Assembly: GCA_034423015.1 (NCBI GenBank)
Contig: DAOUJG010000053.1
Span: 68,565 to 132,564 of the forward strand
DNA from: Dehalococcoidia bacterium
Lineage (GTDB): Bacteria > Chloroflexota > Dehalococcoidia > Lucifugimonadales > JAGWBF01
Length of the DNA stretch: 64,000 nucleotides
Direction of reading: 5' to 3'
The notes below the pieces were generated by a model, which saw nothing but the letters and a program-made list of their open reading frames with translations, had not been told where the DNA came from and ran no database searches. Positions 2,195 through 50,247 of this stretch are shown here, piece after piece; the stretch's first letter is position 1, and the number at the start of each line of letters is the position of its first letter. The position numbers were made by a program, and so were the translations under genes.

Positions 2195-2960
2195 CCTCTC
2201 TCTCCTGTTGGGCGTTCTCGGTAGCCGCGGGCGGCTGGGCTCCGGGCCTGGGCGAGCACAGCCTGGCCGTGGTGATGAACCCCGTGTGGGCCACCATCCT
2301 GTGCACGGGCCGCACGCTGCGGCTGGTCACGTTCCAGGGGCGCAGCAGCACCTCCACCGTCTCGACGAGCTGGAACCGCGGGTCCGCGGCGAGCGCCTCC
2401 GCCAGCCGGTGTATCTGGAGCACCGTGGGAAGGAAGCTGAGGAAGATGCCGCCCCTGCGCAGGGCTTCGCCGACGTGGGGCACAGCCTGCCACGGCTCGG
2501 GCACGTCCAGCACGACCCGGTCCACCTCCCGCTCGACGATCCCCTGGTAAACGTCGCCGATGCGCAGCTCGTGTCGGTCGAAGTCTGGGGCCAGCGCCCG
2601 TACGTTGGCCAGGGCCTTGGCCACCATGTCCTCCCGCACCTCGTAGGTGACCACCCTGCCCCGGGGCCCTACCGCCCGCAGGAGGGCCGCCGTCAGCGCC
2701 CCGGACCCCAGCCCCGCCTCGATGACGGTGGCCCCGGGGAACACGTCGGCCAGCATCAGGATGTTGCCCAGGTCCTTCGGGTAGATGACCTGGCTTCCCC
2801 TGGGCATCTCCAGCACGTAGTCGCTCAGGGTGGGCTTCAGGGCCAGCAGGCCCTGGCCCATGCTGGTGCGGAACCAGTCGCCCTGCTGGCTGCCGATGAT
2901 CTGGTCGTGGGGGAGGGTGCCCACGTGGGTGTGGAACACGGCGTCCGACTTCAGAGTCAC
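2172..2960 (-). CDS. trmI: tRNA (adenine-N1)-methyltransferase, TrmI/Gcd14 family
   Basis: SAM-binding motif VIEAGLGSGALT, DVPEPW, and family-typical FHTHVGTLPHDQIIG. GTG 2960 is the first canonical start, but the conserved N-terminal strand GDLALLIDRKGRRHLV is encoded upstream, out to about 3065 (see finding). Confidence 0.85.
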   Translation of the reverse strand: MTLKSDAVFHTHVGTLPHDQIIGSQQGDWFRTSMGQGLLALKPTLSDYVLEMPRGSQVIYPKDLGNILMLADVFPGATVIEAGLGSGALTAALLRAVGPRGRVVTYEVREDMVAKALANVRALAPDFDRHELRIGDVYQGIVEREVDRVVLDVPEPWQAVPHVGEALRRGGIFLSFLPTVLQIHRLAEALAADPRFQLVETVEVLLRPWNVTSRSVRPVHRMVAHTGFITTARLCSPRPGAQPPAATENAQQEREDGPADDR

Positions 2961-3096
2961 CAGGTGCCTGCGGCCCTTGCGGTCGATCAGAAGGGCCAGG
3001 TCTCCCTCCTGGAACCCCCCTCCGCCGCGGGCGAGTTGCTGGGCCGCCGTCGGGTCGGCTACTATGGGGCGCCTCCGGTGGGGAATGGCTGTCGGC

Positions 3097-3939
3097 TCAT
3101 CGCGGCGCCGGGGCCTGCCGGCCCGTCACCTCGTCCAGGAACCGCAGCACCTCGGCGGTGCAGCGGTCGGGGATCAGAAGCTGGATGCCGGCGGCCATGT
3201 TGGGGAAGGTGACCAGCCGGGAGTCGGCGACGGCCTCCCACACCCGGGCCTGCTCGTCGGGCGGGCAGCTCTTGGCCCTGTCGCTGTACATGATCAGCGT
3301 TGGGACGTCGATCCTGGAGTGGAGCTGGGAGACGTCCAGCACCTCGAGCACGTCCATGAGGGAGGCCGCGACCTCGGTCGGGGTCTTGGAGTGCTCCCGC
3401 ACGTGCCACTCGTCCAGCCTGGGGTTGGCCAGGGCCAGGTCCATGCGGGTCGCCCGGGTATCGATGAGCCACTGGGGGAAGCCCACCCGCCTGATCTCGT
3501 CGCACGCCCTGATCCCCGCCGCGGCGAAGTGTCCCGTGCCTATCCCCGCGGGGGTGTTGCAGAGGGTGAGGCTCTTTATCCGGTCGGGGTGGTTGGCGGC
3601 GTACACGATGCCCCAGAGACCGCCGGACTCGAAGCCCACCCAGTGGACGGCGTCAATCTCCAGGGCGTCGATGACGTCCACCACGTCCGCCGCGATGCGG
3701 TCCGCAGACCAGGGCGCGCCCTCGGGGGGAACGGAGGAGCCGCCGCAGCCGCGGATGTCGTAGCGCAGGACCCTGTACTTTCTGGCCAGGGCGGGCACCC
3801 ACTGGGTCCACCACACCATGCTGCGGGCGAACCCGTGGCTCATGACGATGGTCTCCCCCGGGCCCTCTATCCACGGGTCCCGGAAGTCGTCCAGCCGGTA
3901 GTTGATCTCGACGCCGTCGCCGGTACGCACGCTGGGCAT
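3097..3939 (-). CDS. alpha/beta-fold hydrolase
   Basis: Internal ATG 3937-3939 chosen, because the upstream part of the 331-aa track ORF runs across the peroxiredoxin gene in another frame. It has IVMSHGF and a nucleophile-elbow-like VGFESGG. Substrate unknown. Confidence 0.8.
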   Translation of the reverse strand: MPSVRTGDGVEINYRLDDFRDPWIEGPGETIVMSHGFARSMVWWTQWVPALARKYRVLRYDIRGCGGSSVPPEGAPWSADRIAADVVDVIDALEIDAVHWVGFESGGLWGIVYAANHPDRIKSLTLCNTPAGIGTGHFAAAGIRACDEIRRVGFPQWLIDTRATRMDLALANPRLDEWHVREHSKTPTEVAASLMDVLEVLDVSQLHSRIDVPTLIMYSDRAKSCPPDEQARVWEAVADSRLVTFPNMAAGIQLLIPDRCTAEVLRFLDEVTGRQAPAPR

Positions 3940-3950
3940 CGGCGGTCCCC

Positions 3951-4415
3951 CTAGCCCAGCTTGTCCAGCTCCGCCAGGATGTCCCTGGGATCGGGGAGGT
4001 TGGGGGGCGAGTACTCCTGCCTGAACCGGATGACCCCGCCCTTGTCCACGATTATGATGGCCCGGCGGCTGGCGCCCCGTTCCTCGTTCCACAGCCCGTA
4101 GGACTTGACCATCTCCCCGTGGGGATGGAAGTCGGAGAGGAGGGGGTAGGGTATGTTCCCAAGGCCCGTCGAGTAGGCGCGGTGGGAGTGTTGGCTGTCA
4201 CAGCTTATGCCCAGGACCTGGGCATCCTTCTCCTCGAACTGGCCGTTGTACTGCCGGAACGAGGAGACCTGGTTCGTTCACCCGCCTGTGAAGTCGAAGA
4301 CGTGGAAGGAGAGCACCACGTTCTTCTGGCCCCGGTACTGGCCCAGGGAAACGTCGTCTCCCAGGCTGGAGGGCATCGTGAAATCGGGAGCGGGCTGTCC
4401 CACCTCGGCTGCCAT
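3951..4415 (-). CDS. peroxiredoxin (AhpC/TSA/Bcp type) with in-frame UGA at the peroxidatic Cys position; selenocysteine candidate
   Basis: A single frame from ATG 4413-4415 to TAG 3951-3953 reads MAAEVGQPAPDFT...VVLSFHVFDFTGG-TGA(4278-4280)-TNQVSSFRQYNGQFEEKDAQVLGISCDS...IIIVDKGGVIRF...LDKLG. The TGA aligns with Cys of the FTGVCTDE motif in the adjacent paralog. Confidence 0.75.
4230..4266 (-). promoter_or_regulatory. candidate bacterial SECIS hairpin downstream of the UGA at 4278-4280
   Basis: On the mRNA, CUCCUCG...CGAGGAG forms a 7-bp stem starting 11 nt after the UGA. A short inner CCG/CGG pairing is possible and the apical region contains GU. Not folded computationally. Confidence 0.4.
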
Positions 4416-4456
4416 GCTGCGTACCTCCTAAAGCTGACCTGCGGCCCGGCTGGGGG

Positions 4457-4933
4457 CTATCCTCCCAGGCCGCTCAGGGCCTGCCTGATCTCGTCGTAGT
4501 CGGGCTCCGCGGTGACCTGTGGGGCGACCCACTTGTACCGGACCACCCCGCCCTTGTCCACCACGAACACCGCCCGGTTGGCCGCCGTGTACCCCTCCAT
4601 CCCGGCCAGGTTGGGGAGGGCGACCCCGTACTGGTTCACCACCTGGCGGGTGAAGTCGCTCAGCAGGGGGAAGTTGAGGTTGTTGGCGTCGGACCACGCC
4701 TTCTGGGCGAAGGGCGGGTCTACGCTTATGCCCAGCACCTGGGCGTTCAGGGAGTTGAACTGGTCGGCCCGGTCCCGCAGGGCGCACATCTCGTCGGTGC
4801 AGACCCCGGTGAAGGCGCCGGGAAAGAAGGCGAGGACCACGTTCTGCCCGTGGAGGTCGCCCAGGCTCCTGCTCTTCAGGTCGGTGCCGTGGAGGGTGAA
4901 GTCCGGGGCCGCCTGGCCGACGTCGACAGACAT
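4457..4933 (-). CDS. peroxiredoxin (AhpC/TSA/Bcp type, Cys form)
   Basis: 158 aa. It has the PxxxTxxC-type motif [12 protein letters not shown] and [12 protein letters not shown]. Confidence 0.9.
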
Positions 4934-5108
4934 GGAATAACTCCCCTTTCCAGCTACGTTGGACTCTCTACCGGCCCGTCCGGGCGTGGGGCGGCTACAT
5001 TATAGCGCATAGACGGCTGGCATACCACCGAGGGGCCCCCGGCGACGGCCCCAACGACGGTCGCCCGCTGACAATCCGCGGTCGCCCTCTCCGTCTGGAT
5101 TTGATAAG

Positions 5109-5831
5109 ATGCTCTACATGGAGATAGGAGAGGCGCAGTTGCAGGAATTACAGACCGCAGCTCGAGAACTCGGAGATAAGTTGTCCTCTGAACGTCCGAT
5201 ATTTGTTGAGTTCGCAGGCACTCCCAAGAGTGGGAAGAGCACCTGTATTGACACCGTCAACCATTTCTTCCGACGGCTGGACTATAAGGTGTTGGCGCCC
5301 ACGGAAGGTGCTTCCAAGCGAACGCCGTACTATCTCAAGGATGATTTCGTCGCATTCAATACTTGGTCAGCGGCCTACGCGTTGACTCACATCTTGGAGG
5401 GCCGCTTTGGGTCTGACCAATACCAGTTGGTCATCATGGACCGGGGACTCTTCGATGCCCTTGCCTGGTTTGAACTCCTGCGGGCTAAAGGCGACGTCAC
5501 GGAAGAAGACTGCACCGTCATTCAGAGCTTCCTGCTGGTTGGTCATTGGCGACAGCTAGTCGATGCGGTTTTCTTGTTCAAGACCGACCCGGCCACGTCG
5601 CTGGTGCGTGAGAACAGCAACAAGCTAATAGAAGAACCAGGTCGAGCCATGAACCCTGAGTTCCTTCGAGACCTGAACGACGCTTATCAATCCATCAGTT
5701 CGAAATACTCCGCGCAGTTCAGGTCCGTTTACGAGGTGGACACCGCCGGTGCCCAAGACACCACACCTCAGTCGACGGCCTTTGAGGTCGTCAAGAGAAT
5801 CGTCGACCACATTCGAAGCAGGGTAGCGTAA
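5109..5831 (+). CDS. P-loop NTPase, deoxynucleoside/NMP-kinase-like
   Basis: Walker A GTPKSGKST. VIMDRGLFDALAW resembles the DR/ERS motif of the dNK/NMP-kinase fold. A sampled line is about 48% GC, clearly below the flanks. Confidence 0.6.
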   Translation: MLYMEIGEAQLQELQTAARELGDKLSSERPIFVEFAGTPKSGKSTCIDTVNHFFRRLDYKVLAPTEGASKRTPYYLKDDFVAFNTWSAAYALTHILEGRFGSDQYQLVIMDRGLFDALAWFELLRAKGDVTEEDCTVIQSFLLVGHWRQLVDAVFLFKTDPATSLVRENSNKLIEEPGRAMNPEFLRDLNDAYQSISSKYSAQFRSVYEVDTAGAQDTTPQSTAFEVVKRIVDHIRSRVA

Positions 5832-8325: not shown

Positions 8326-11300
8326 ATGAACGAGAACGAACGCATCGACTCCCTCAAGTCCCTTCTGCAACGGCGAATACTGGTGCTGGACGGCGCCATG
8401 GGGACGTCCATCCAGGCCCTGGACCTGGGGCCGGAGGACTTCGGCGGAGCGGAGTACGAGGGGTGCAACGAGTACCTGGTCGTAACCCGGCCAGACGCCA
8501 TCTTAGGCATACACCGGAGCTACCTGGACGCCGGATGCGACATCCTGGAGACCAACACCTTCGGCGCCACGCCCCTGGTGCTGGCCGAGTACGGCCTGGC
8601 CCACGAGGCCCGGCGCATCAACCGGGAGGCCGCGGCCCTGGCGCGGCAGGCGGCGGACGAAGTCGCCACTGCCGACAGGCCGCGTTTCGTCGCCGGGTCC
8701 ATGGGCCCCACCACCAAGACAATCTCGGTGACCGGCGGCGTGACCTTCGACGAGCTGGCTGACTCGTTCCACGAGCAGGCGCTGGGCCTGTTGGAGGGGG
8801 GCGCCGACCTGCTCCTCCTGGAGACTGGCCAGGACACCCTGAACATCAAGGCCGGCCTGGAGGGCATCGACCACGCCTTCCAGGAGCTTGGGAGAGAGCT
8901 CCCGGTGGCGGTGCAGGGGACCGTGGAGCCCATGGGCACCCTGCTGGCGGGACAGGACGTGGAGGCGCTCTACACGTCCCTCGCCCACCGGGACCTGCTG
9001 TGGATAGGGCTGAACTGCGCCACCGGGCCGACCTTCATGACCGACCACGTCCGCACCCTGGCGGCCCTGTCCCGGTTCCCGGTAGCGTGCCTGCCCAACG
9101 CAGGCCTGCCCGACGAGTTCGGCAAGTACAACGAGACGCCGGAGATGATGGCGCACACCCTGGGCCTCTTCATCGCCTCCGGCTGGGTCAACCTCATCGG
9201 CGGGTGCTGCGGCACGACGCCGGAGCACATACGCCTGCTGGTCGAGGCCGCCGAGGGCGCCCCCGGCAGGCCCCTCGCCGCCGGGCGGGATACACGGGTG
9301 TCGGGCATCGAGACGGTGGTGGTGGACGAGGACGTCCGGCCCGCCATCGTCGGAGAGCGCACCAACGTCCTGGGGAGCCGCCGCTTCCGCCGCCTCATAA
9401 ACCAGGGCAGCTTCGAGGAGGCCGCCGAGGTGGGACGCCGTCAGGTGCGAAACGGCGCCCACGTGCTGGACGTGTGCCTCCAGGACCCAGACCGGGACGA
9501 GGTGGCCGACGTGACCACCTTCCTGGATGTGCTCAACAAGAAGGTCAAGGCGCCGGTCATGATCGACTCCACCGACGCCCAGGTGATCCACGAGGCCTTG
9601 AAGCGGCTCCAGGGCAAGTCCATCATCAACTCTGTCAACCTGGAGGACGGCGAGGAGCGGTTCCAGGCGGTTGTCCCGCTGGCCCGGCGGTACGGTGCGG
9701 CCCTGGTCGTGGGCTGCATCGACGACGACAAGGAGCAGGCCCAGGCCGTCACCCGGCAGCGCAAGCTGGACGTGGCCCTCAGGTCCTACGACCTCCTGAC
9801 CGGGAAGTATGGCGTGGCCCCCGAGGACCTGATCTTCGACCCGTTGGTGTTCCCGGCGGGGACGGGGGACGAGAACTACGTTGGGTCGGGAGAGGAGACC
9901 ATCGAGGGGGTACGGCTCATCAGGCAGGCGCTGCCCCGCTGCAAGACCGTCCTTGGCATTTCCAACGTCTCCTTCGGACTGCCCCCCTCGGGCCGGGAGG
10001 TGCTCAACTCGGTGTTCCTGTACCACTGCGTCCAGGCCGGCCTGGACATGGCCATCGTCAACTCGGAGTTGATGCAGCGGTACACGTCCATCCCGGAGGA
10101 GGAGCGGAGGCTGGCCGAGGACCTGATCTGGAACCGGGGCGAAGACCCGGTGGCCGCCTTCGCGGCCCACTTCAGGGACCGGCCGCCCAAGTCGACCACC
10201 GAGGAGCGGCGTAGCCTGCCCCTGGACGAGCGGTTGGCCATGGCCATCATCGAGGGGTCCAAGGAGGGGCTGGCCGAGGACCTGGACGAGGCCATGGCCG
10301 GGCGGACCCCGCTGGAGATAATCAACGGTCCGCTGATGGCGGGGATGGACGAGGTGGGGCGACAGTTCAACGCCAACCAGCTCATCGTGGCTGAGGTGCT
10401 CCAGTCGGCGGAGTCCATGAAGTTCGCGGTGGCCCACCTGGAGCCCCACATGGAGCGGGTGGACTCGGCCACCCGGGGCAAGGTGGTGCTGGCCACGGTG
10501 AAGGGCGACGTCCACGACATAGGCAAAAACCTGGTGGAGATCATCATCTCCAACAACGGTTACCAGGTGATAAACCTGGGGATCAAGGTGCCGCCCCAGG
10601 ACCTGATCGAGGCCTACCGGGAGCATAACCCGGACATCATCGGGCTGTCGGGCCTGCTGGTGAAGTCCGCCCAGATGATGGTGGAGACGGTGCGGGACTT
10701 TCGCCAGGCGGGCGTGAGTGCGCCGGTGCTGGTGGGTGGCGCCGCCCTCTCCAACCGGTTCACCCGGCTGCGCATCGCGCCGGAGTACGACGGGCTGGTG
10801 GCCTACGCCTCCGACGCCATGACGGGCCTGGCTCTGGCCAACACCATCCAGGAGGCCGACGAGCGGGAGCGGCTGGCGGCGTCGCTGACGGCCGAGTCCC
10901 GGGACCTCCTGGAGAGCGAGGAACGACGCCGGCAGGCGGAGCCGGCCGCCGGCGCGCTGCCCCCCAAGGCGGCCCAGGTCAGGCACGACTTCCCCATCCC
11001 CAACCCGCCCGACCTGCTCCTGCACGTCATACGGGACCACGACCTGCAGGAGATATTCCCGTATATCAACCCCCAGATGCTGTACGCCCGCCACCTGGGC
11101 TTCAAGGGACGGTTTGCCGATGCCCTGTCCCAGGGGGACCCGGCGGCGGTGGAGCTGCGGGAGTCGGTGCGGCGGATAGAGGACGAGGTTCTGGCCCGGG
11201 ACGACATCAACGCCGGCGCCGTCTTCAAGTTCTTCCCCTGCCGCTCCGATGGCCGGCAGGTGCTGGTGTACGCCCCCGACGGGGCGACGGTCCTGGAGCG

Positions 11301-11835
11301 GTTCCGCTTCGGCCGCCAGTCCCGGGGGGACGGGCTGTGCCTGGCCGACTACCTGCTACCCGGGGACTCTGGGGAGGTCGACTACCTGGCCATGTTCGTA
11401 ACCACCGTGGGACCGGGGGTCCGCGACCTGGCCGAGGCGTGGAAGCAGGAGGGGCGCTACCTGGACTCCCACGTCCTCCAGGCGCTGGCCCTGGAGAGCG
11501 CCGAGGCGTTCGCGGAGCTGCTGCACCAGCGCATTCGCCGCATGTGGGGGTTTGGCGACCCCGAGGGCACCACCTACGTGGACCTGTTCCGGACCCGGTA
11601 CCGGGGCCGCCGCTACTCCTTCGGCTATCCCGCCTGCCCCAGGCTGGAGGACCAGGCCCAGCTCTTTCGCTTGCTGGGAGCCACGGCCGAGCTCGGGGTG
11701 GAGCTGACCGAGGAGTTCATGATGGACCCCGAGTCATCGGTCTCGGCGCTGGTCTTCCATCACCCCGACGCCAAGTACTTCAACCTGGACGAGGCGGACA
11801 TCCAGCGGCTGGAGGCCGAGACAGGGGCCGGCTAG
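8326..11835 (+). CDS. metH: cobalamin-dependent methionine synthase
   Basis: 1169 aa. Hcy-binding, pterin-binding, B12-binding (ATVKGDVHDIGKN) and AdoMet-activation domains follow one another colinearly. Confidence 0.95.
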   Translation: MNENERIDSLKSLLQRRILVLDGAMGTSIQALDLGPEDFGGAEYEGCNEYLVVTRPDAILGIHRSYLDAGCDILETNTFGATPLVLAEYGLAHEARRINREAAALARQAADEVATADRPRFVAGSMGPTTKTISVTGGVTFDELADSFHEQALGLLEGGADLLLLETGQDTLNIKAGLEGIDHAFQELGRELPVAVQGTVEPMGTLLAGQDVEALYTSLAHRDLLWIGLNCATGPTFMTDHVRTLAALSRFPVACLPNAGLPDEFGKYNETPEMMAHTLGLFIASGWVNLIGGCCGTTPEHIRLLVEAAEGAPGRPLAAGRDTRVSGIETVVVDEDVRPAIVGERTNVLGSRRFRRLINQGSFEEAAEVGRRQVRNGAHVLDVCLQDPDRDEVADVTTFLDVLNKKVKAPVMIDSTDAQVIHEALKRLQGKSIINSVNLEDGEERFQAVVPLARRYGAALVVGCIDDDKEQAQAVTRQRKLDVALRSYDLLTGKYGVAPEDLIFDPLVFPAGTGDENYVGSGEETIEGVRLIRQALPRCKTVLGISNVSFGLPPSGREVLNSVFLYHCVQAGLDMAIVNSELMQRYTSIPEEERRLAEDLIWNRGEDPVAAFAAHFRDRPPKSTTEERRSLPLDERLAMAIIEGSKEGLAEDLDEAMAGRTPLEIINGPLMAGMDEVGRQFNANQLIVAEVLQSAESMKFAVAHLEPHMERVDSATRGKVVLATVKGDVHDIGKNLVEIIISNNGYQVINLGIKVPPQDLIEAYREHNPDIIGLSGLLVKSAQMMVETVRDFRQAGVSAPVLVGGAALSNRFTRLRIAPEYDGLVAYASDAMTGLALANTIQEADERERLAASLTAESRDLLESEERRRQAEPAAGALPPKAAQVRHDFPIPNPPDLLLHVIRDHDLQEIFPYINPQMLYARHLGFKGRFADALSQGDPAAVELRESVRRIEDEVLARDDINAGAVFKFFPCRSDGRQVLVYAPDGATVLERFRFGRQSRGDGLCLADYLLPGDSGEVDYLAMFVTTVGPGVRDLAEAWKQEGRYLDSHVLQALALESAEAFAELLHQRIRRMWGFGDPEGTTYVDLFRTRYRGRRYSFGYPACPRLEDQAQLFRLLGATAELGVELTEEFMMDPESSVSALVFHHPDAKYFNLDEADIQRLEAETGAG

Positions 11836-14594
11836 GACGATCCGGCGGCCTCTTTCAGGGCTGCCTGGGCGGCGGCGAGGCGGGCCACGGGGACGCGGAA
11901 GGGCGAGCAGCTAACGTAGTTCAATCCCTCCCGGTGGCAGAACTCGATGCTGGCCGGGTCTCCGCCGTGCTCCCCGCAGATCCCCACCTCCAGGTCCGGG
12001 CGTGTCCGGCGGCCCTGCTCCACGGCGATGCGGACCAGGGCGCCCACACCGTCGGGGTCCAGGGTGGCGAAGGGGTTGGCGGGCAGGACCTCCTCCTGGA
12101 TGTAGGTGGCCAGGAACTTGCCCTCGGCGTCGTCGCGGCTGAAGCCGTAGGTGGTCTGGGTCAGGTCGTTGGTCCCGAAGCTGAAGAAGTCCGAGTGGCC
12201 GGCCACCTCTCCCGCTGTGAGGCACGCCCTGGGCACCTCTATCATGGACCCGTACAGATAGCCGACGGTGGTGTCCATCTCCTTCTGCACCCGGTCGGCG
12301 ACCTTGGTGAGACCTACTTTGAGGCGGCTGAGCTCGTTGACGTGGGAGGTGAGGGGGATCATGATCTCGGGGTGCACCTGGACCCCCTCGCGGATGAGCC
12401 CCGCGCCCGCGGTGATTATGGCCTCCACCTGCATCTCGTAGATGGCGGGGAAGGTCAGGCCGAGCCTGCAGCCTCGGTGCCCCAGCATGGGGTTGGACTC
12501 GCGCAGGGACTCCACAAGCTGCAGGAACTGCTCCCTGGCCTGCCTCTCCTCCTGGGGCGCGCCCCGGACCTCCATCTCCACCACCTCCCGCAGCAGGTCC
12601 TCGTGCCGGGGAAGGAACTCGTGGAGCGGGGCATCCAGGAGGCGGATGATAACCGGGCGGTCGCCCATGGCCCTGAGCACCCCGGTGAAGTCGGCTATCT
12701 GCAGCTCCTTGAGATGTGCAAGGGCGTTGTAGAACTCGTTGACGCCCACGGGTAGCTCGGGCGAGGTGGCGCGACGGACGGCCGCCTCGGGGTGGGCGGC
12801 CTCCCAGCGCTCGGCCTCCTGGGCGTTGATGAGCATCCGCTGCACCACGGGCACTCTGTCGGGCCCCAGGAACATGTGCTCGGTGCGGCAGAGGCCTATC
12901 CCCTCGGCCCCCATCGCCACGGCCCGCTCGGCGTCCAAGGGGGTGTCGGCATTGGCCCAGACGCCCAGGCGCCTGGCCTTGTCGGCCCAGGAGAGAAGGG
13001 TCTGGGCCTCCTGCAGCTCGTCCAAGTCCGGCTGGAAGGTGGGTATGGCCCCGGCGAACACCTCCCCGGTGGTGCCGTCCACGCTGAGGTCGTCTCCCTC
13101 CTCTATCGTTTGGCCGTTGGCGACGAAACGCCGGCCCTGGAGGTCGACCTGTATGTCCTCGCATCCGACCACGCACGGCTTGCCCAGTCCCCGGGTGACC
13201 ACCGCCGCGTGGCTGGTGACGCCGCCGCGGCTGGTGAGCACGCCCCTGGCCTCCAGTATGCCGTGGATGTCGTCGGGCTTGGTCTCGGGCCGGACCAGGA
13301 TGACGGGCGTGCCGTTCTTGCCGGCCTCGGCGGCCCGGGTGGCGTCGAAGAACACCTTGCCGGTGGCCGCTCCCGGGGAGGCGCCGAAGCCGCGTCCCAG
13401 CAGCTCCTGCGAGGATACCTTGGCGGCCCTGGCTTCGGAGTCGAAGCGAGGGACGAAGAGCAGGGACAGCTCCTCGGCGTTGACCCGGTTGATGGCCGCG
13501 CTCTCGTCGATCAGGACCTCGTCCACCATGTCCACGGCGCTCTTCACGGCCGCCTGGACGGTCCGGGCGGCGTTGCGGGCCTGGAGCATGTACAGGCGGC
13601 CACCCTCCACGGTGAACTCCAGGTCCTGGACGTCCCTGTAGTGCTGCTCCAGCTGCTGGGCCACCCTGGAGAGCTGGGAGTGGACCTCGGGCAGCTGCCG
13701 GGCGAGGGCGGAGATGGGTTCGGGGTTGCGAATCCCCGCCACCACGTCCTCTCCCTGGCCGTTGACGAGGTACTCGCCGTACAGCTCCTTTCGGCCGTTC
13801 AGGGGATTGCGCGTGAAGAGGACTCCCGTTCCGCTGTCGTCTCCCAGGTTGCCGAAGACCATGGCCATTATGTTGACGGCCGTGCCCCAGTGGTGGGGGA
13901 TGCCGAAGTGGTCCCGGTAGCTGACGGCGCGGGGGCTGTTCCAGCTCTCGAAGACCGCCTTGACGGCTCCTTCAAGCTGCTCCCAGGGGTCCTGGGGCAC
14001 TTCGCTGGAGGTGGCCTTGTGGACCTCCGCCTTGAACTGCTCGATGACGCTGCGGAGCTGGTCGGGGTTCAGCTCGTTGTCCAGGCTGACTCCGGCGCGC
14101 TCCTTCTCCCGGGCGAGTATCTCCTCGAAGACCTCGGAGTCCACGCCCATCACGACTCCGGCGTACATCTGTATGAACCGGCGGTAGGCGTCATAGGCCG
14201 GACGCTCGTCGCCCATGAGGGAGGCCAGACCGTGGACTATCTCGTCGTTGTTTCCCAGGTTGAGGATGGTGTCCATCATGCCTGGCATGGATATCCTGGC
14301 TCCCGAGCGCACGGAGACCAGCAGGGGACTGGACTCGGAGCCGAACCGGCGGCCGATGGACTCCTCCAGCGACGCCATGTTGCTCCTTACAGCCTCCCAC
14401 AGGCCCTCGGGCACCTGGCCGCCGGTCTCGAAGAAGTGGACGCAGGCCTCGGTGGTGATGATGAAGCCGGGGGGCACGGGAAGGTCCAGGTTGGCCATCT
14501 CGCAGAGGTTGGCCCCCTTGCCGCCCAGCAGGTCGCGCATCCCCGCATCGCCTTCGTCGAACCGATAGGTCAGCTTGCTGCCGCCCTTTGCCAT
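11832..14594 (-). CDS. ppdK: pyruvate, phosphate dikinase
   Basis: 920 aa. It has N-terminal LLGGKGANLCEM, the phosphohistidine region GGVTSHAAVV and a C-terminal PEP-utilising domain. Confidence 0.95.
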   Translation of the reverse strand: MAKGGSKLTYRFDEGDAGMRDLLGGKGANLCEMANLDLPVPPGFIITTEACVHFFETGGQVPEGLWEAVRSNMASLEESIGRRFGSESSPLLVSVRSGARISMPGMMDTILNLGNNDEIVHGLASLMGDERPAYDAYRRFIQMYAGVVMGVDSEVFEEILAREKERAGVSLDNELNPDQLRSVIEQFKAEVHKATSSEVPQDPWEQLEGAVKAVFESWNSPRAVSYRDHFGIPHHWGTAVNIMAMVFGNLGDDSGTGVLFTRNPLNGRKELYGEYLVNGQGEDVVAGIRNPEPISALARQLPEVHSQLSRVAQQLEQHYRDVQDLEFTVEGGRLYMLQARNAARTVQAAVKSAVDMVDEVLIDESAAINRVNAEELSLLFVPRFDSEARAAKVSSQELLGRGFGASPGAATGKVFFDATRAAEAGKNGTPVILVRPETKPDDIHGILEARGVLTSRGGVTSHAAVVTRGLGKPCVVGCEDIQVDLQGRRFVANGQTIEEGDDLSVDGTTGEVFAGAIPTFQPDLDELQEAQTLLSWADKARRLGVWANADTPLDAERAVAMGAEGIGLCRTEHMFLGPDRVPVVQRMLINAQEAERWEAAHPEAAVRRATSPELPVGVNEFYNALAHLKELQIADFTGVLRAMGDRPVIIRLLDAPLHEFLPRHEDLLREVVEMEVRGAPQEERQAREQFLQLVESLRESNPMLGHRGCRLGLTFPAIYEMQVEAIITAGAGLIREGVQVHPEIMIPLTSHVNELSRLKVGLTKVADRVQKEMDTTVGYLYGSMIEVPRACLTAGEVAGHSDFFSFGTNDLTQTTYGFSRDDAEGKFLATYIQEEVLPANPFATLDPDGVGALVRIAVEQGRRTRPDLEVGICGEHGGDPASIEFCHREGLNYVSCSPFRVPVARLAAAQAALKEAAGSS

Positions 14595-14716
14595 CGTCTA
14601 CTCCGATCTCTCTCCCCTTCCGGGGACCTGAGCTATGGCTTGGTCTCCGCCGGACGCCGCCCGCGCCCGGGAGTCAGTGGCGCCTCGTTACCCCGCTTTC
14701 GCGTGGGGCCGCTCGC

Positions 14717-15724
14717 TCAGGACTCGTCCTGCGGGGCGGCGGCCGCTTCCTCCAGGTAGAAGCCGTTCTCCCAGAGGTCGTCCAGTACGGCCTCCTCCTC
14801 CGGCCCCAGGTCGGGCGTGTCGGGAGCGGAGGTGTACTCCACCAGCTCATCCATGCCGGTGATGTTGGGCAGCACCGAGACGATGCTGCCCTTGGCCAGG
14901 CAGAACTTGATGGCCGCCTGGGACATGGTCCGCCCCGTCTCCTCGGCCAGGAACCTGGCCTGCGCGGCCTTCTTGAGCGCGTCGACCATCCACTCGTGCT
15001 TGCGGTGGGCGCGGTGGTCGGTGGGGTCGAACTCCGGGGGCTCGGTGAACTTGCCGGTGAGGACCTCGGAGGCGTGGGGCACCCGGGACAGGAGGCCCAC
15101 GTTCTCCTCCTCGGCGATGGGAAAGAAGCGGCGGGCCGGGTCCTGCTCCAGGATGCTGTAGATTATCTGGACGGAGCTGACCTGCCTCTCCCGCATGGAG
15201 GCCTCTCCCTCCTCGAACCATCCTATGTCCGGGCCCAGGGCGGAGCCGTAGTACCGTATCTTGCCCTCCTTGACGAGGGCATCCAGCAGGTCGAACACCT
15301 CGTCGTTCTCGATGGCGTCGATGCGGGGGTTGTGCAGCTGGAAGAGGTCTATGTAGTCGGTCTTGAGGCGGCGGAGGCTCTGTTCGCATGCGTAGCGGAT
15401 GAAGTCCGGCTCGAAGCGCTGGGACCGCTCCTTGTGGCCGATGCGCTCTATGTTGTCGTACCAGTCGTAGCCGAACTTGGTGGCGATGACTATGTCATGC
15501 CTGGCGTGTCCCAGGGACTTGGCCAGGATCTCCTCACCGTAGCCCTCGCCGTAGGTGTCGGCGGTGTCGAAGAGGTTGATCCCCATCTCCACTGCCTGCT
15601 CGAGGAGGCGCACCTTGTCGGCCTCCTCGATGCGGCCCCACCAGTTGGTGGCCACGGTCCACAGGCCGAACCCCACCTCGGATAGCTGGAGGTCGGTCCT
15701 GGGTAGCTGCCGGTACTTCAACAT
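14717..15724 (-). CDS. aldo/keto reductase
   Basis: ATG 15722-15724 (the longer track ORF is a shadow extension). FDTADTYGEGYGE, IDLFQLH and the overall AKR layout are present. Confidence 0.9.
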   Translation of the reverse strand: MLKYRQLPRTDLQLSEVGFGLWTVATNWWGRIEEADKVRLLEQAVEMGINLFDTADTYGEGYGEEILAKSLGHARHDIVIATKFGYDWYDNIERIGHKERSQRFEPDFIRYACEQSLRRLKTDYIDLFQLHNPRIDAIENDEVFDLLDALVKEGKIRYYGSALGPDIGWFEEGEASMRERQVSSVQIIYSILEQDPARRFFPIAEEENVGLLSRVPHASEVLTGKFTEPPEFDPTDHRAHRKHEWMVDALKKAAQARFLAEETGRTMSQAAIKFCLAKGSIVSVLPNITGMDELVEYTSAPDTPDLGPEEEAVLDDLWENGFYLEEAAAAPQDES

Positions 15725-15831
15725 GCACTCCGCAGGATAGTCTCCCCGGCCGGGCGTGCGGGCTGCCGCCGGCCCGAGGACAAGCGTGCGCCCGCCATCG
15801 GTCCCCGGGCCTTCGGCCCCCCGGCCCTCGG

Positions 15832-16404
15832 TTATTTCAGCGCGGCCTTGACCTCTTGGACCCTGGTCCGGAAATCGTCGTCGGTCATGACCGGGGCGAG
15901 GGCCCCGAGTCGGACGGGCTCCGGGAGCTCGACCCAGGACTTGCACCCGGCGAAGGACCGGGAGAAGGGCACGGTGTGCGGCTCCTCCAGGCGGTACAGC
16001 CGTACCAACAGTATGGCCAGCGGGTGTCTTGGCTTCCAGTGAAGGCGCTTCTGCGCGTAGTCCGATGTCCAGATGTGGTGGGGCTCCAAGCTGTCCACGG
16101 CGGCCTGTTCGCTCAGCTCGATGGCTTCTTCGACCCTGGCCCAGTGGCCGAAGGTGATGGCGCCGTTGCCCCCGGCCTCGGCGACCACCCGGGACAACTC
16201 CTGGTGATACTCCTCCTTGAGCAGCTCCGGCTTCTGGTGCTCGAAGGTCGGATACATCAGGAACTCCGGATGTAGCACCCGGAAGTCCTTGCCATCCTCG
16301 TGGATGCCGCCCTTGCGGAGGAGGAGGATCTGGTCGCCCCGGTCGAAGGCGCGAATGGTGACGGCCCACTCCTTGAAGGCGACATTGCAGGAGAGATGGT
16401 GCAT
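15832..16404 (-). CDS. DUF1802-family protein
   Basis: AFKEWAVTIRAFDRGDQILLLRKGGIHE...MYPTFEHQ matches my recollection of DUF1802. ATG 16402-16404. Confidence 0.65.
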   Translation of the reverse strand: MHHLSCNVAFKEWAVTIRAFDRGDQILLLRKGGIHEDGKDFRVLHPEFLMYPTFEHQKPELLKEEYHQELSRVVAEAGGNGAITFGHWARVEEAIELSEQAAVDSLEPHHIWTSDYAQKRLHWKPRHPLAILLVRLYRLEEPHTVPFSRSFAGCKSWVELPEPVRLGALAPVMTDDDFRTRVQEVKAALK

Positions 16405-16522
16405 GGTCTCGCTCCGGGCGGGCACGGGCGGCCGAATGGTGCCCGCGAATATCCAACAATGTTATCACCAACGGTCAACTGCCTCAACCGGTGGCGCTGC
16501 TCCTTTCCCTTCCCACTGCGGC

Positions 16523-16531
16523 TATAATGGG
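16523..16531 (+). promoter_or_regulatory. -10 element TATAATGGG upstream of the reductase gene
   Basis: TATAAT plus a GGG discriminator lies 26 nt before ATG 16557. The -35 is weak. Confidence 0.4.
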
Positions 16532-16556
16532 ACGGTACCGAGACATAAGGGGGACG

Positions 16557-17708
16557 ATGACGGGAAAGAGATACGACGTCCTGATAGTGGGGGCCGGGCC
16601 CGCGGGCACGACCCTCGCCTACGACCTGGCGCGCCGGGGTGTCAGCACCCTCATCGTCGAGCGGGAGAGGCTGCCCCGTTACAAGACCTGAGGCGGCGGT
16701 GTGAATGAAAGGGCCGTTCGGCTCTTGGATTTCCCGATAGCGCCCGTGGTCCAGAGGACCGTGGACCGGGCGTGGCTCACCTACAGGATGTCCGGTGGCT
16801 TCGTCCGCAGCTTCCATCAGCCCTTTACGTACATGACGATGCGGGAGCGCCTGGACTCCTACCTGGCCCAGCGGGCCGTGTCGGTGGGGGCCGAGGTCAT
16901 GGACGGGGCCCGTGTCGTGGGAGTCGAAGCCGGGGACGGGCCCGTACGCGTTTCCGTGGCCGGGGAGACCATCGAGGGCCGGGTGCTGGTGGGGGCCGAC
17001 GGGGTGAACAGCGTCGTTGCCCACCAGGCGGGACTCCTGAGGGATGCGGAGGTCGGCGTCGGGCTGGAGAGCGAGGTCTACCCTGCCCCCGGCATCCTGG
17101 AGCCCTGGAGGGACACGGCCGGCCTGGATTTCGGGACCCTCCGGGGCGGCTACATGTGGGTGTTCCCCAAGGAGGACCACCTGTCCATCGGCGTGGCGGG
17201 GTTCGCCCGGTGGGGTCCCAGGATGCGGGGCCTCCTGGACGCCTACCTGGGCTTCCTGGGGTTGGAGGGCGCGGAACGCCGACTGACCAGGGGACACCGG
17301 CTGGCGCGACGCAAGAGGGGGATGGCCATCCAGTCTGGCCCTGTCCTGCTGGTGGGAGATGCGGCGGGGCTGATGGACTTCTGGACCGGGGAGGGCATCT
17401 ACTACGCCGTCAAGAGCGCCCAGGCGGCGGCACCGGCCATCGCCGCGTACCTGGAGGGTGCGACCCCGGACTTCGCCGGCTACGAGAAGACCATCGACGC
17501 CGAGCTGATGCCCGAGCTGCAGATAGCCCGGACGCTGACGAGGATCGCCGTGTGGTTCCCCAAGCTCACATACACGTTGATGAAGAGGTCGGACTGGGTG
17601 TGGAACGCCGGGTGCCAGGTGCTGCGGTCCGAGAAGACCTATCAGGACGTAAGGGGTAGGATGGGGCCCCTCACCTTCCTCTTCGACCTGGCCGGTAAGG
17701 GGACGTGA
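16557..17708 (+). CDS. geranylgeranyl-reductase-family FAD flavoprotein with in-frame UGA at the conserved CGG-motif Cys; selenocysteine candidate
   Basis: Track ORFs 16491-16691 and 16701-17708 are in the same frame. The joined product reads MTGKRYDVLIVGAGPAGTTLAYDLARRGVSTLIVERERLPRYKT-TGA(16689-16691)-GGGVNERAV...LLVGDAAGLMDFWTGEGIYYAVKS. The dinucleotide-binding motif and the GD motif are intact. Confidence 0.75.
16709..16726 (+). promoter_or_regulatory. candidate bacterial SECIS hairpin
   Basis: AAGGGCC-GUUC-GGCUCUU forms 7 bp (including one G-U pair) with a GU-containing tetraloop. It starts 17 nt after the UGA. Confidence 0.45.
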
Positions 17709-34290: not shown

Positions 34291-34320
34291 ACCAAACTCA
34301 AAGACTGCACCGGACGCCAA

Positions 34321-34407
34321 TTCCCTACGCTGGCATTACCCAGATCAGGTCGCAAGGGTCGACGGCATCGACGGCCGCCCTCTCAGCCTGGCTAAACCAA
34401 GCTCCCC
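34321..34407 (-). promoter_or_regulatory. TPP (THI-box) riboswitch aptamer
   Basis: The mRNA reads GGGGAGC...GCCAGGCUGAGAGGGC...ACCCUUGCGACCUGAUCUGGGUAAUGCCAGCGUAGGGAA. It contains the conserved CUGAGA, ACCUGAUCUGGnUAAUGCCAGCG and AGGGAA blocks. Confidence 0.9.
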
Positions 34408-35129
34408 TACGGGCCTAGCTGTTCGATTGTGCGCGTATTATAGGTTCCGTGCCGGGAGGTGTCAACAGAGGCCCTTCCCGTCGCGCACAGGTCGCGGAGG
34501 CAGCACTCGTCGCAAAGGGGCGTCTTCTTGCACGTCTCCTTGGCGTGCCGGTCCAGCAGGGCGTGGTACTCGTTGAAGAGGGACGGGTCGTGGGGCAACG
34601 CGTCGTGGAAGAGCCGCTGGTAGTCGCCGTAGAGTCCCCTGTCGGGGGCCAGGCCCATGCGGCCCAGGATGCGGCGGGTGTAAGAGTCGATGACGAAGGA
34701 GGGTCGTCCCGCGGCGTACAGGAGGATGTCGTCGGCCGTCTCGTCGCCGATGCCGTGGATGGAGAGCAGCTCTTCCCGCAGGGCCCCGGTGTCGCCGGAG
34801 AGGAGCGCCTCCAGGTCGCCGTCGTGGCGGTCCCACAGGTGGTCGATGAAGGCCTTCAGCTTTCGCGCCTTGGCGTTGAAGTAGCCCGAGGGCCGCACAA
34901 GCTCCGCCAGGCGCTCCTCGGGGCAGGCCCGGAGGCCGCGAGCCGACATGAGCCCGGCGTCCCTCAGGTTGGCCAGGGCCTTCTCCACGCCCGTCCATGC
35001 CACGGCCTGGGTCAGGATGGCCCCCAGGACCACCTCCAGGGGCGTCTCCGCGGGCCACCAGTGCTGGGGGCCGTAGCGCAGGTACAGGCGTCGGTACGTC
35101 TCCATCAGGACGCCGGTGTCCTCCGCCAT
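34407..35129 (-). CDS. endonuclease III-like HhH-GPD DNA glycosylase family protein
   Basis: It has the HhH region LLSIHGIGDETADDILLY and the 4Fe-4S loop C-x6-C-x2-C-x5-C (CKKTPLCDECCLRDLC). Confidence 0.8.
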   Translation of the reverse strand: MAEDTGVLMETYRRLYLRYGPQHWWPAETPLEVVLGAILTQAVAWTGVEKALANLRDAGLMSARGLRACPEERLAELVRPSGYFNAKARKLKAFIDHLWDRHDGDLEALLSGDTGALREELLSIHGIGDETADDILLYAAGRPSFVIDSYTRRILGRMGLAPDRGLYGDYQRLFHDALPHDPSLFNEYHALLDRHAKETCKKTPLCDECCLRDLCATGRASVDTSRHGTYNTRTIEQLGP

Positions 35130-49999: not shown

Positions 50000-50225
50000 A
50001 AAAAAACCCGTCCCCTCAAGGGACGGGCTGTTCCCGCGGTACCACCCTTCTTCTCCGGCCGTTCCGGAGCTCCTCTGGGACCTTAACGGTGCCCTGCCGG
50101 CCCTCCCTACTGGGCGTTCAGGAGGGCTGCTCGGGGGCGAGTTCGGGGCTCTTCCGCCGCCGGTTTCTCAGCATGCAACCGGCTCTCTTGGACGGGGACA
50201 TCCCCTACTACTCCCCTTCATAGCG
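50000..50225 (-). promoter_or_regulatory. T-box leader (tRNA-sensing riboswitch) of the ilv-leu operon, probable Leu (CUC) specifier
   Basis: The mRNA contains the exact T-box core AGGGUGGUACCGCG (50035-50047), the terminator CCCGUCCC-uuga-GGGGACGGG plus U7 (50000-50027), an AAGAGA bulge with the distal hairpin GCCGGUU/AACCGGC, and an internal loop AGUAGUA / GAA-CUC-G (CUC at 50139-50141). Confidence 0.85.
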
Positions 50226-50247
50226 TCAATATGAATCTCGGTAGGGA

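What the first reader, a model, noticed from the sequence alone, without database searches (positions are those of the whole stretch)
3951..4415. Peroxiredoxin with UGA exactly at the peroxidatic cysteine, next to a Cys paralog: likely selenoprotein
The six-frame track shows no ORF covering this gene. Read on the minus strand from ATG 4415 to TAG 3951, however, one frame encodes a complete 154-residue AhpC/TSA/Bcp-type peroxiredoxin with a single in-frame TGA at 4278-4280.

The local sequence is HVFDFTGG-UGA-TNQ. The tandem paralog 40 nt upstream (4457-4933) reads [12 protein letters not shown] at the same place, so the TGA replaces the catalytic Cys of the T-x-x-C motif.

The reading frame and family-typical sequence continue for 108 codons after the TGA, which argues against a decaying pseudogene. 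A 7-bp stem (CUCCUCG/CGAGGAG, 4230-4266) begins 11 nt after the UGA, where a bacterial SECIS is expected. Automated callers would split or miss this gene, and the track instead shows a spurious N-terminal extension of the neighbouring hydrolase across it.

Sec-containing Prx-like proteins are known from anaerobes and marine metagenomes. The Sec/Cys tandem pair is a neat natural comparison.
Basis: partly seen in the sequence, partly recalled or inferred. Interest (0 to 1): 0.7.

Follow-up and report, generated by a model that had tools for sequence, protein, structure and literature searches.

The report
Selenocysteine peroxiredoxin gene missed by annotation
This is a real, intact antioxidant-enzyme gene whose catalytic residue is almost certainly selenocysteine encoded by an in-frame UGA, which is why gene callers split it; the type of protein is already well known, so it is a correct but fairly ordinary find.

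Summary
Minus strand 4415..3951 encodes a 154-codon AhpC/TSA peroxiredoxin with one in-frame TGA (4278-4280) at the peroxidatic-cysteine column.

It is neither a pseudogene nor an assembly error:
- 70 of 80 species-level genomes with a homolog (Dehalococcoidia, Entotheonella/Tectimicrobiota, Burkholderiales) carry exactly one in-frame stop, always TGA at this column. Ten Acidobacteriota relatives have Cys there.
- Both halves are under purifying selection (dN/dS below 0.33).
- TGA is an ordinary stop elsewhere in this genome.
- A hairpin 11 nt after the UGA is far more stable than synonymous-codon shuffles (z -3.3) and than the same region in Cys-type homologs.

The closest solved relative is M. 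tuberculosis AhpE. A second UGA-interrupted gene in the same window, a geranylgeranyl-reductase-family flavoprotein at 16557-17708, supports Sec decoding independently. A published database lists one genome that carries this Prx among the most selenoprotein-rich bacteria.

No selA, selB, selD or tRNA-Sec lies in the window, so the machinery was not shown for this genome.

Sec-peroxiredoxin (TxxU motif) is an established, abundant marine selenoprotein family. This is a new member of a known kind. The reductase-family candidate may be the more novel item.

The parts
3951..4415 (-). Complete Sec-type peroxiredoxin gene (AhpE-like, 154 codons plus TAG stop), read through one UGA
   Evidence: Translation. 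Pfam AhpC-TSA 116 bits, residues 5-131 spanning the UGA. Best solved relative is M. tuberculosis AhpE, E 1.6e-29. dN/dS 0.05-0.33 upstream and 0.07-0.30 downstream of the UGA.
4278..4280 (-). In-frame UGA, codon 46: inferred selenocysteine codon at the peroxidatic position of the T-x-x-C/U motif
   Evidence: Aligns with C45 of AhpE and C45 of the paralog. TGA at this column in 70 of 80 species genomes, Cys in the other 10. TGA is a normal stop in 6 of 16 neighbouring called genes.
4229..4267 (-). SECIS-like hairpin. Lower stem is 8 bp (4267-4260 with 4236-4229). Then a UU/UU internal loop, an upper stem 4257-4253 with 4243-4239, and an apical region 4252-4244 (AGUACAACG).
   Evidence: MFE fold. 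In the window, -21.0 kcal/mol against -10.3 for synonymous-codon shuffles, z -3.3. Across 66 Sec-type genes the median z is -1.98, against -0.44 for 21 Cys-type homologs. Mean MFE -17.0 against -12.8, p = 3e-4. Fixed-register pairing 65% against 56% shuffled and 39-53% slid. Compensatory changes are visible between clades.
4457..4933 (-). Upstream tandem paralog: Cys-type peroxiredoxin (158 aa) with [10 protein letters not shown], i.e. Cp plus a second Cys five residues later, as in BCP/PrxQ-type enzymes
   Evidence: Translation. Pfam AhpC-TSA 134 bits. 40% identity to the Sec gene. The same tandem layout occurs in L001/L002/L017 and in 14 of 72 Sec-type loci.
3097..3939 (-). Downstream alpha/beta hydrolase gene (280 aa), 11 nt after the Prx stop. 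Probably co-transcribed.
   Evidence: Called gene with Pfam Hydrolase_4/Abhydrolase_1. No terminator-like site in 2900-5200.

Best explanation
The gene encodes a one-domain, AhpE-like peroxiredoxin whose peroxidatic residue is selenocysteine.

During translation of the mRNA, the UGA at codon 46 is not read as stop. A hairpin that begins 11 nt downstream, within the coding sequence, acts as a bacterial SECIS element. It recruits the Sec-specific elongation factor SelB carrying Sec-tRNA(Sec), so Sec is inserted and translation continues for 108 more codons.

The finished enzyme reduces peroxides. The selenolate of U46 attacks the peroxide and is oxidised to a selenenic acid, positioned by the conserved Thr43 and Arg. 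It is then reduced back. This could go through a selenenylsulfide with the clade-conserved Cys72, or directly through an external thiol reductant as in 1-Cys AhpE.

The gene sits in an apparent operon after a Cys-type BCP/PrxQ-like paralog and before an alpha/beta hydrolase.

What is shown:
- the gene is intact and conserved on both sides of the UGA;
- the UGA is conserved and is homologous to Cys;
- a selected hairpin is present;
- UGA is otherwise a stop in this genome.

What is inferred:
- the inserted residue is Sec;
- SelA/SelB/SelD/tRNA-Sec exist in this genome;
- the chemistry, and any resolving role for Cys72.
For: - Domain integrity across the UGA: Pfam AhpC-TSA E 1.1e-33; AhpE structures E 1.6e-29 with U46 on AhpE C45.
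- UGA conservation: exactly one in-frame stop, TGA, at the Cp column in 70 of 80 species genomes from at least three phyla. Cys (FTPVCANQ) in ten Acidobacteriota relatives. Close Cys-type forms P0006, P0012 and P0057 also exist.
- Database signature of a mis-called selenoprotein: the nearest relatives are 88-104 aa C-terminal fragments, or carry 'W' where the DNA has TGA.
- Purifying selection on both sides of the UGA.
- Hairpin selected beyond the needs of the protein sequence, and absent in Cys-type homologs. Apical loops lie 23-32 nt from the UGA, inside the published 16-37 nt range (PMC13188914).
- UGA is a normal terminator here: 6 of 16 called genes and 29 of 85 long ORFs.
- A second conserved UGA-at-Cys gene lies 12 kb away in the same window.
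- L045 is the genome 'Dehalococcoidia bacterium 10f4566d-...' and carries this Prx with TGA. BSepDB classes it as Sec-utilising with 46 selenoprotein genes (PMC13326102).
- Prx with TxxU is an established, experimentally verified selenoprotein family (PMC1794560; PMC2398784; PMC13188914).
Against: - No selA, selB, selD (tblastn with E. coli queries) or tRNA-Sec (ARAGORN; Rfam) in the window or in any fetched locus. The Sec trait is therefore not demonstrated for this particular genome.
- No single consensus structure is found by RNAalifold across all 67 sequences, because the upper stem changes register between clades.
- The rule 'G in the first two apical-loop positions' is met in only about half of the MFE folds. 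In the window it is met only in the alternative 9-nt-loop fold.
- Against dinucleotide shuffles the window hairpin is only z -1.55.
- No Rfam family matches the hairpin.
- The canonical Pro of PxxxTxxC is Val here, so the active site is not fully canonical.
- No protein-level evidence.
Confidence: 0.9

Rival explanations
1. UGA at codon 46 is recoded, but to a standard amino acid rather than Sec. Possible routes are near-cognate read-through by tRNA-Trp, or a dedicated opal-decoding tRNA charged with Cys that is delivered by a SelB-like factor. I recall such a system being proposed for some bacteria, but I did not verify that here.
For: The Sec machinery was not found in the sequence available. 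The homologous residue elsewhere is Cys, so Cys insertion would also give an active enzyme. The hairpin would be equally needed by a SelB-like delivery route.
Against: A genome carrying this gene with TGA is classed as having the Sec biosynthetic system and 46 selenoprotein genes. Prx TxxU is an experimentally verified Sec family. A lineage able to insert Cys would have no reason to keep UGA across at least three phyla rather than mutate to UGC/UGU, as the few Cys-type members did. Trp or Gly at the peroxidatic position would give a dead enzyme, which does not fit dN/dS below 0.33.
Confidence: 0.05
2. The gene is split or truncated. Translation stops at the UGA, and only the 45-residue N-terminal peptide and/or a separately initiated C-terminal fragment is made. 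That would make it a degenerating or two-piece gene.
For: This is what automated callers output. A standard reading of the genetic code gives this result.
Against: The thioredoxin-fold domain spans the UGA, and neither piece contains the catalytic residue. Callers pick inconsistent downstream starts (87-105 aa products), so there is no conserved internal start. In the window the first ATG-started ORF after the UGA gives only 53 aa. The UGA and both flanks are conserved under purifying selection across 70 species, which decay would not produce.
Confidence: 0.02
3. The TGA is a sequencing or assembly error for TGC/TGT in this scaffold.
For: A single-base difference separates TGA from the Cys codons. 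The source is a metagenome assembly.
Against: The same TGA is present in independent short-read and long-read assemblies of dozens of species.
Confidence: 0.01

Closest known systems
Sec-containing peroxiredoxin family ('Prx', PF00578, T-x-x-U) of bacterial selenoproteomes (Zhang et al. 2006, PMC1794560; GOS analysis, PMC2398784; 2026 review, PMC13188914)
   Same: AhpC/TSA domain. Sec replaces the peroxidatic Cys in the T-x-x-C motif. Cys-type homologs are far more numerous. An in-frame UGA is followed by a hairpin inside the coding sequence. The family is common in marine metagenomes (253 sequences in GOS).
   Different: The published family description stresses a conserved PxxxTxxU motif. 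Here, and in 61 of 72 Sec-type relatives, the Pro is Val or Ile. I could not check whether this particular AhpE-like clade is among the catalogued sequences.
PrxU of Eubacterium acidaminophilum (NCBIfam NF040737), the experimentally verified Sec-peroxiredoxin
   Same: A peroxiredoxin with Sec at the peroxidatic position. It is the best-scoring NCBIfam model for this protein.
   Different: A different subfamily. The score is 66.6 bits against a curated cut-off of 270, the model is 233 positions long against 154 residues here, and PrxU comes from an anaerobic Firmicute.
AhpE of Mycobacterium tuberculosis (Rv2238c; PDB 1XXU, 1XVW, 5C04)
   Same: Closest solved relative (E 1.6e-29 over residues 4-144). 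Same length (153 aa), same FTG-x-C context, and no resolving Cys in the usual positions. JGI names some family members 'mycoredoxin-dependent peroxiredoxin'.
   Different: AhpE uses Cys, keeps the canonical Pro, and has Val where this clade has Cys72.
E. coli fdhF-type bacterial SECIS element (bSECIS model: small apical loop with G in its first two positions, 16-37 nt from the UGA)
   Same: A hairpin immediately downstream of the UGA within the ORF. The apical loop is about 25-29 nt from the UGA. In the 9-nt-loop fold the loop starts A-G-U.
   Different: The stem is long (8 bp lower stem plus interrupted upper stem). The G rule holds in only about half of relatives' MFE folds. There is no single consensus structure across clades.

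Membership tests
Peroxiredoxin (AhpC/TSA, PF00578) | Domain match above Pfam's gathering score | tested here: met
   116.2 bits against cut-off 26; residues 5-131 on profile positions 1-123 of 124, with U read as C.
Peroxiredoxin (AhpC/TSA, PF00578) | Peroxidatic Cys/Sec preceded by Thr at -3 (T-x-x-C/U) | tested here: met
   T43-G-G-U46. U46 aligns to AhpE C45 and to the paralog's C45. Thr is invariant in 72 of 72 Sec-type and 9 of 9 Cys-type relatives.
Peroxiredoxin (AhpC/TSA, PF00578) | Conserved Pro at -7 (P-x-x-x-T-x-x-C) | tested here: not met
   Val39 aligns with the Pro of AhpE. The position is V or I in 61 of 72 Sec-type genes and P in 11 of 72 Sec-type and 9 of 9 distant Cys-type genes. 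The close Cys-type forms P0006 and P0057 also have V, so this is a clade trait. It does not remove the protein from the family, given the domain score.
Peroxiredoxin (AhpC/TSA, PF00578) | Conserved active-site Arg | tested here: met
   R117/R118 in S-R-R-A-I-I-I-V-D aligns with the N-R-G-T-F-V-V-D Arg of AhpE.
Bacterial selenoprotein (Sec decoded at UGA) | In-frame UGA at a position occupied by Cys in homologs | tested here: met
Bacterial selenoprotein (Sec decoded at UGA) | UGA and both flanks conserved in orthologs | tested here: met
   70 of 80 species genomes. dN/dS below 0.33 on both sides.
Bacterial selenoprotein (Sec decoded at UGA) | bSECIS hairpin immediately downstream, apical loop 16-37 nt from the UGA with G in the first two loop positions | tested here: inconclusive
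   Position and stability are met: z -3.3 against synonymous shuffles, stronger than in Cys homologs, and loops at 23-32 nt. The G rule is met in 35 of 72 MFE folds, and in the window only in the alternative fold. No alifold consensus. No Rfam match.
Bacterial selenoprotein (Sec decoded at UGA) | selA, selB, selD and tRNA-Sec in the same genome | not testable with these tools
   Absent from the 64 kb window and from about 600 kb of fetched loci. The one 'SelB' hit was EF-Tu. The rest of the genome could not be reached. Literature support exists only for the L045 genome.
Bacterial selenoprotein (Sec decoded at UGA) | Selenium in the protein | not testable with these tools
   Needs 75Se labelling or mass spectrometry.
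PrxU (NCBIfam NF040737, equivalog) | Score at or above the curated cut-off | tested here: not met
   66.6 bits against 270. It works like PrxU but is not a member of that equivalog.
AhpE-type peroxiredoxin subfamily | Closest to AhpE among solved Prx structures; about 153 aa; no resolving Cys at the BCP (+5) or typical 2-Cys C-terminal positions | tested here: met
   AhpE chains score E 1.6e-29 to 2e-27, against 3e-20 for the next class. Position +5 is Ser. No curated AhpE model was available to score against.

The most novel reading that the evidence does not exclude
The Dehalococcoidia-centred clade of AhpE-like peroxiredoxins may be a mechanistically distinct Sec-Prx subclass. In it the canonical active-site Pro has been given up, and a clade-specific Cys at +26 serves as resolving residue through a selenenylsulfide. 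It would belong to an unusually large selenoproteome in marine Dehalococcoidia that also includes a not-yet-catalogued selenoprotein family, a geranylgeranyl-reductase-family flavoprotein with Sec at the PRYKxCGG cysteine.
Probability: 0.25. Interest if true: 0.5.

Novelty: new member of a known kind. Interest (0 to 1): 0.3.

Why it matters
The finding itself matters mainly for annotation.
- The gene is split or lost in this scaffold and in most relatives.
- Public protein databases hold fragments of 87-105 aa and versions with a false Trp at the active site.
- That pattern misleads homology searches and undercounts antioxidant capacity in marine Dehalococcoidia.

Biologically, it adds one more case of Sec replacing the peroxidatic Cys. 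It also offers natural comparison material: Sec-type and Cys-type members of one clade, plus a Cys-type paralog in the same operon.

The larger value is contextual. Two conserved UGA-at-Cys genes within 12 kb suggest that this lineage uses selenium widely. The second gene belongs to a family I could not find in current selenoprotein catalogues.

Tried and rejected
- RNAalifold on all 67 distinct UGA-downstream sequences gave no consensus structure. By eye the upper stem shifts register between clades, so I used a fixed-register pair count and energy comparisons instead.
- tblastn with E. coli SelA, SelB and SelD against the window and all loci gave one hit, in L024. It proved to be EF-Tu.
- ARAGORN reported a 90-nt 'tRNA-Phe' in the window and a 97-nt 'tRNA-Leu' in L006. 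Both lie inside protein-coding genes (metH and citrate synthase) and have odd anticodon positions, so I rejected them as false positives. Neither has anticodon UCA.
- The single metagenome-contig scan, spent on the GGR-family protein, returned only one 23%-identical match and was uninformative.
- BSepDB supplementary tables are not held, so I could not check whether this exact gene or the GGR family is listed. PMC12013261 (Haft & Tolstoy 2025) is not held.
- PMC5424206 was checked for UGA-to-Cys recoding in Dehalococcoidia. It only reports SepRS/SepCysS there and does not bear on this question.
- Relaxed Rfam search around the hairpin gave only a chance FsrA fragment, E 1.4.
- The sigma-70 and terminator scan found nothing on the minus strand in 2900-5200.
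- I first read Cys+26 and Pro-to-Val as co-evolving with Sec. I dropped that reading because the close Cys-type forms P0006 and P0057 share both features.
- I did not run structure prediction. The sequence match to AhpE is already decisive for the fold, and the tool returns no coordinates with which to measure the U46-C72 distance.

Full report
**1. The observation**

Reading the minus strand from ATG 4415 gives 154 sense codons ending at TAG 3953-3951. There is one in-frame TGA at 4280-4278 (codon 46), in the context SFHVFDFTGG-TGA-TNQVSSF. The upstream gene 4933..4457 reads [15 protein letters not shown] and ends 41 nt before the ATG.

With the UGA read as Cys, the protein matches Pfam AhpC-TSA at 116 bits (cut-off 26). 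This is a single alignment of residues 5-131 to profile positions 1-123 of 124, so the domain spans the UGA. Mechanical ORF listing shows only a 45 aa and a 53 aa piece, plus a 331 aa ORF in another frame. That ORF over-extends the downstream hydrolase. The public gene calls on the source scaffold show the same split.

**2. Where it comes from**

The window is part of a 136 kb metagenome scaffold, ENA ERZ23495130 scaffold_427. A scan of one genome per bacterial species found 227 relatives. The best 80 are mostly Dehalococcoidia MAGs, with identity up to 98% (OZ219928.1). Candidatus Entotheonella/Tectimicrobiota, Burkholderiales and Acidobacteriota also appear.

**3. Is the UGA real and conserved?**

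In 70 of those 80 species genomes the homolog has exactly one in-frame stop. It is always TGA and always at the column of the peroxidatic residue. The ten Acidobacteriota/Vicinamibacterales homologs have Cys (FTPVCANQ) there.

The protein database shows the typical footprint of a mis-called selenoprotein:
- The nearest relatives (60-86% identity) are 87-105 aa C-terminal fragments.
- The 'full-length' entries from short contigs read FTGGWTNQ.
- The DNA behind one of the latter has TGA at the W ('does not translate to query').
- A few close relatives have a real Cys: P0006, P0012 and P0057.

Pairwise dN/dS against 16 co-linear orthologs is 0.05-0.33 for codons 1-45 and 0.07-0.30 for codons 47-154. 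Both halves are therefore translated in this frame and are under purifying selection. This excludes a pseudogene, a two-piece gene and an assembly error.

**4. Is UGA reassigned in this organism?**

No. TGA ends 6 of 16 independently called, mostly Pfam-supported genes around the locus, including the hydrolase directly downstream. It also ends 29 of 85 long stop-to-stop ORFs in the window. Read-through must therefore be site-specific.

**5. The RNA element**

Eleven nt after the UGA starts a hairpin. It has an 8-bp lower stem (UCUCCUCG/CGAGGAGA), a UU/UU internal loop, an interrupted upper stem and an apical region.

Against dinucleotide shuffles it is unremarkable (z -1.55), but this is GC-rich coding sequence. 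The fairer control keeps the protein and redraws synonymous codons:
- Window: -21.0 against -10.3 kcal/mol, z -3.3.
- 66 distinct Sec-type genes: median z -1.98.
- 21 Cys-type homologs and paralogs: median z -0.44.

Absolute stability is also higher in Sec-type genes (-17.0 against -12.8 kcal/mol, p = 3e-4) despite lower GC.

Counting the window's register on all 67 sequences gives 65% paired cells, against 56% in shuffles and 39-53% in slid registers. Ten of 13 pairs show double changes. Examples are visible in the alignment: UCG/CGA to UCA/UGA through paired synonymous changes, and UCUCC/GGAGA to UCGCC/GGCGA.

RNAalifold finds no single consensus, because the upper stem shifts register among clades. 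Apical loops lie 23-32 nt from the UGA, inside the published 16-37 nt range. The 'G in the first two loop positions' rule is met in 35 of 72 MFE folds. No Rfam model matches. I read this as a genuine bSECIS-like element whose fine structure varies by clade.

**6. What kind of peroxiredoxin**

The closest solved structures are all M. tuberculosis AhpE (Rv2238c). They score E 1.6e-29 to 2e-27 over residues 4-144, and U46 aligns with AhpE Cys45. The next class (2-Cys Prx) scores 3e-20.

No NCBIfam equivalog is reached. The best is PrxU, the verified Sec-Prx of E. acidaminophilum, at 66.6 bits against a cut-off of 270. So this protein works like PrxU but is not a member of that equivalog.

Active-site residues:
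- Thr-3 is invariant (72 of 72).
- The Arg aligns with that of AhpE.
- The canonical Pro at -7 is Val here. It is Val or Ile in 61 of 72 Sec-type genes, and Pro in all nine distant Cys-type genes.
- A Cys at +26 (C72, GISCDS) occurs in 61 of 72 Sec-type genes and in none of the nine distant Cys-type genes.

However, the close Cys-type forms P0006 and P0057 also have Val-7 and Cys+26. Both features are therefore traits of the clade, not strict companions of Sec. C72 is a candidate resolving residue. That is inference only.

**7. Context**

The upstream paralog (40% identity) has Cp plus a Cys five residues later, the BCP/PrxQ arrangement. The order Cys-Prx, Sec-Prx, then TrmI-like methyltransferase and HD-domain genes recurs in a 3.4 Mb Dehalococcoidia chromosome. 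In the window an alpha/beta hydrolase sits between the Sec-Prx and those genes. The tandem Cys paralog accompanies 14 of 72 Sec-type genes. No terminator-like site separates the genes.

**8. Sec machinery**

The window has no tRNA-Sec. Neither it nor the fetched loci has any SelA, SelB or SelD match. The only hit was EF-Tu. The rest of the genome was out of reach, so this defining feature is untested for this genome. Two lines of indirect evidence fill the gap.

First, a scan of the window for TGA codons with gene-like codon-position GC on both sides found one other credible case: a 383-codon gene at 16557-17708 (+) with TGA at 16689-16691.
- It passes NCBIfam TIGR02032, the geranylgeranyl reductase family, at 199.9 bits against 158.8.
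- The UGA sits where Cys-type relatives read PRYKTCGGG.
- About 55 of its nearest relatives are N-terminally truncated calls.
- TGA is at the same column in all five loci examined.
- A hairpin with a GUUC loop lies 27 nt from the UGA.

Second, locus L045 (OY761986.2, isolate 10f4566d-...) carries this Prx with TGA. BSepDB ranks that genome among the ten bacteria with the most selenoprotein genes (46). BSepDB counted only species with at least two of SelA, SelB and SelD (PMC13326102).

**9. Comparison with what is known**

Prx with a T-x-x-U motif (PF00578) is listed among experimentally verified prokaryotic selenoproteins (PMC13188914). Twelve members were counted in 2006 genomes, with repeated Cys-to-Sec conversions (PMC1794560). 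It was one of the most abundant families in the GOS ocean data: 253 Sec sequences against 7,348 Cys homologs (PMC2398784).

The finding is therefore a correct identification of a new member of a known kind. Its modest points of difference are the AhpE-like subfamily, the missing Pro and the clade-specific Cys72.

**10. Verdict**

- Observation: confirmed.
- Interpretation: supported, confidence 0.9 that this is a Sec-decoded peroxiredoxin.
- Interest: about 0.3, because specialists would not be surprised.

The GGR-family gene deserves its own follow-up. I found no mention of such a selenoprotein in the 2026 review's family table or text, in deep-Sep, or by full-text search. I could not consult BSepDB's own tables.

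Noticed in passing
window 16557-17708 (+), TGA at 16689-16691; relatives L090-L093: A second candidate selenoprotein: a geranylgeranyl-reductase-family flavoprotein (TIGR02032, 199.9 bits against cut-off 158.8) with in-frame UGA at the Cys of PRYK-x-C-GGG. TGA is conserved in 5 of 5 loci. About 55 nearest database relatives are N-terminally truncated calls. A hairpin AGGGCC-GUUC-GGCUCU lies at 16710-16725. I found no such family in the 2026 selenoproteome review, in deep-Sep or by full-text search, so it may be uncatalogued.
   Followed up: partly
proteins P0001-P0005, P0007, P0008, P0013; L005 150-152: Public protein entries for this family from short metagenome contigs carry Trp at the active-site column. 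At least in P0001 the DNA has TGA there. These appear to be calls made under a UGA=Trp code. They put false 'W' active sites into databases.
   Followed up: partly
window residues V39 and C72 of the Prx (codons at 4301-4299 and 4202-4200, minus strand): In this clade the near-universal Pro of the PxxxTxxC peroxiredoxin motif is Val or Ile (61 of 72 Sec-type genes). A Cys at +26 is present in 61 of 72. Distant Cys-type homologs have Pro and Ile/Val instead. The close Cys-type forms P0006 and P0057 share the clade state.
   Followed up: partly
window 10113-10202 (-); L006 16602-16698 (+): ARAGORN calls a 90-nt 'tRNA-Phe' and a 97-nt 'tRNA-Leu' with unusual anticodon positions. Both lie inside protein-coding genes (metH and citrate synthase) and are probably false positives in GC-rich sequence.
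   Followed up: partly
window 50016-50230 (-) and 34305-34418 (-): A T-box leader (119 bits) and a TPP riboswitch (66 bits), both above Rfam gathering scores.
   Followed up: no
L092 about 9840-9975: In one relative the N-terminal part of the GGR-family gene is out of frame and contains a stop upstream of the conserved PRYKT-TGA-GGG. This is either a long-read assembly indel or a decaying copy.
   Followed up: no
window 5004-4999 (-) and 16523-16528 (+): A perfect TATAAT hexamer in a similar GC-rich context (gcgcTATAATg / cggcTATAATg) lies 66 nt upstream of the Cys-Prx start and 29 nt upstream of the GGR-family start. The consensus promoter scan did not report the first of these, and there is no good -35.
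   Followed up: no
L091, L092, L093 and window 8326-17708: Conserved gene order around the GGR-family gene in several Dehalococcoidia genomes: metH, PPDK, aldo-keto reductase, DUF1802, then the GGR-family gene.
   Followed up: no
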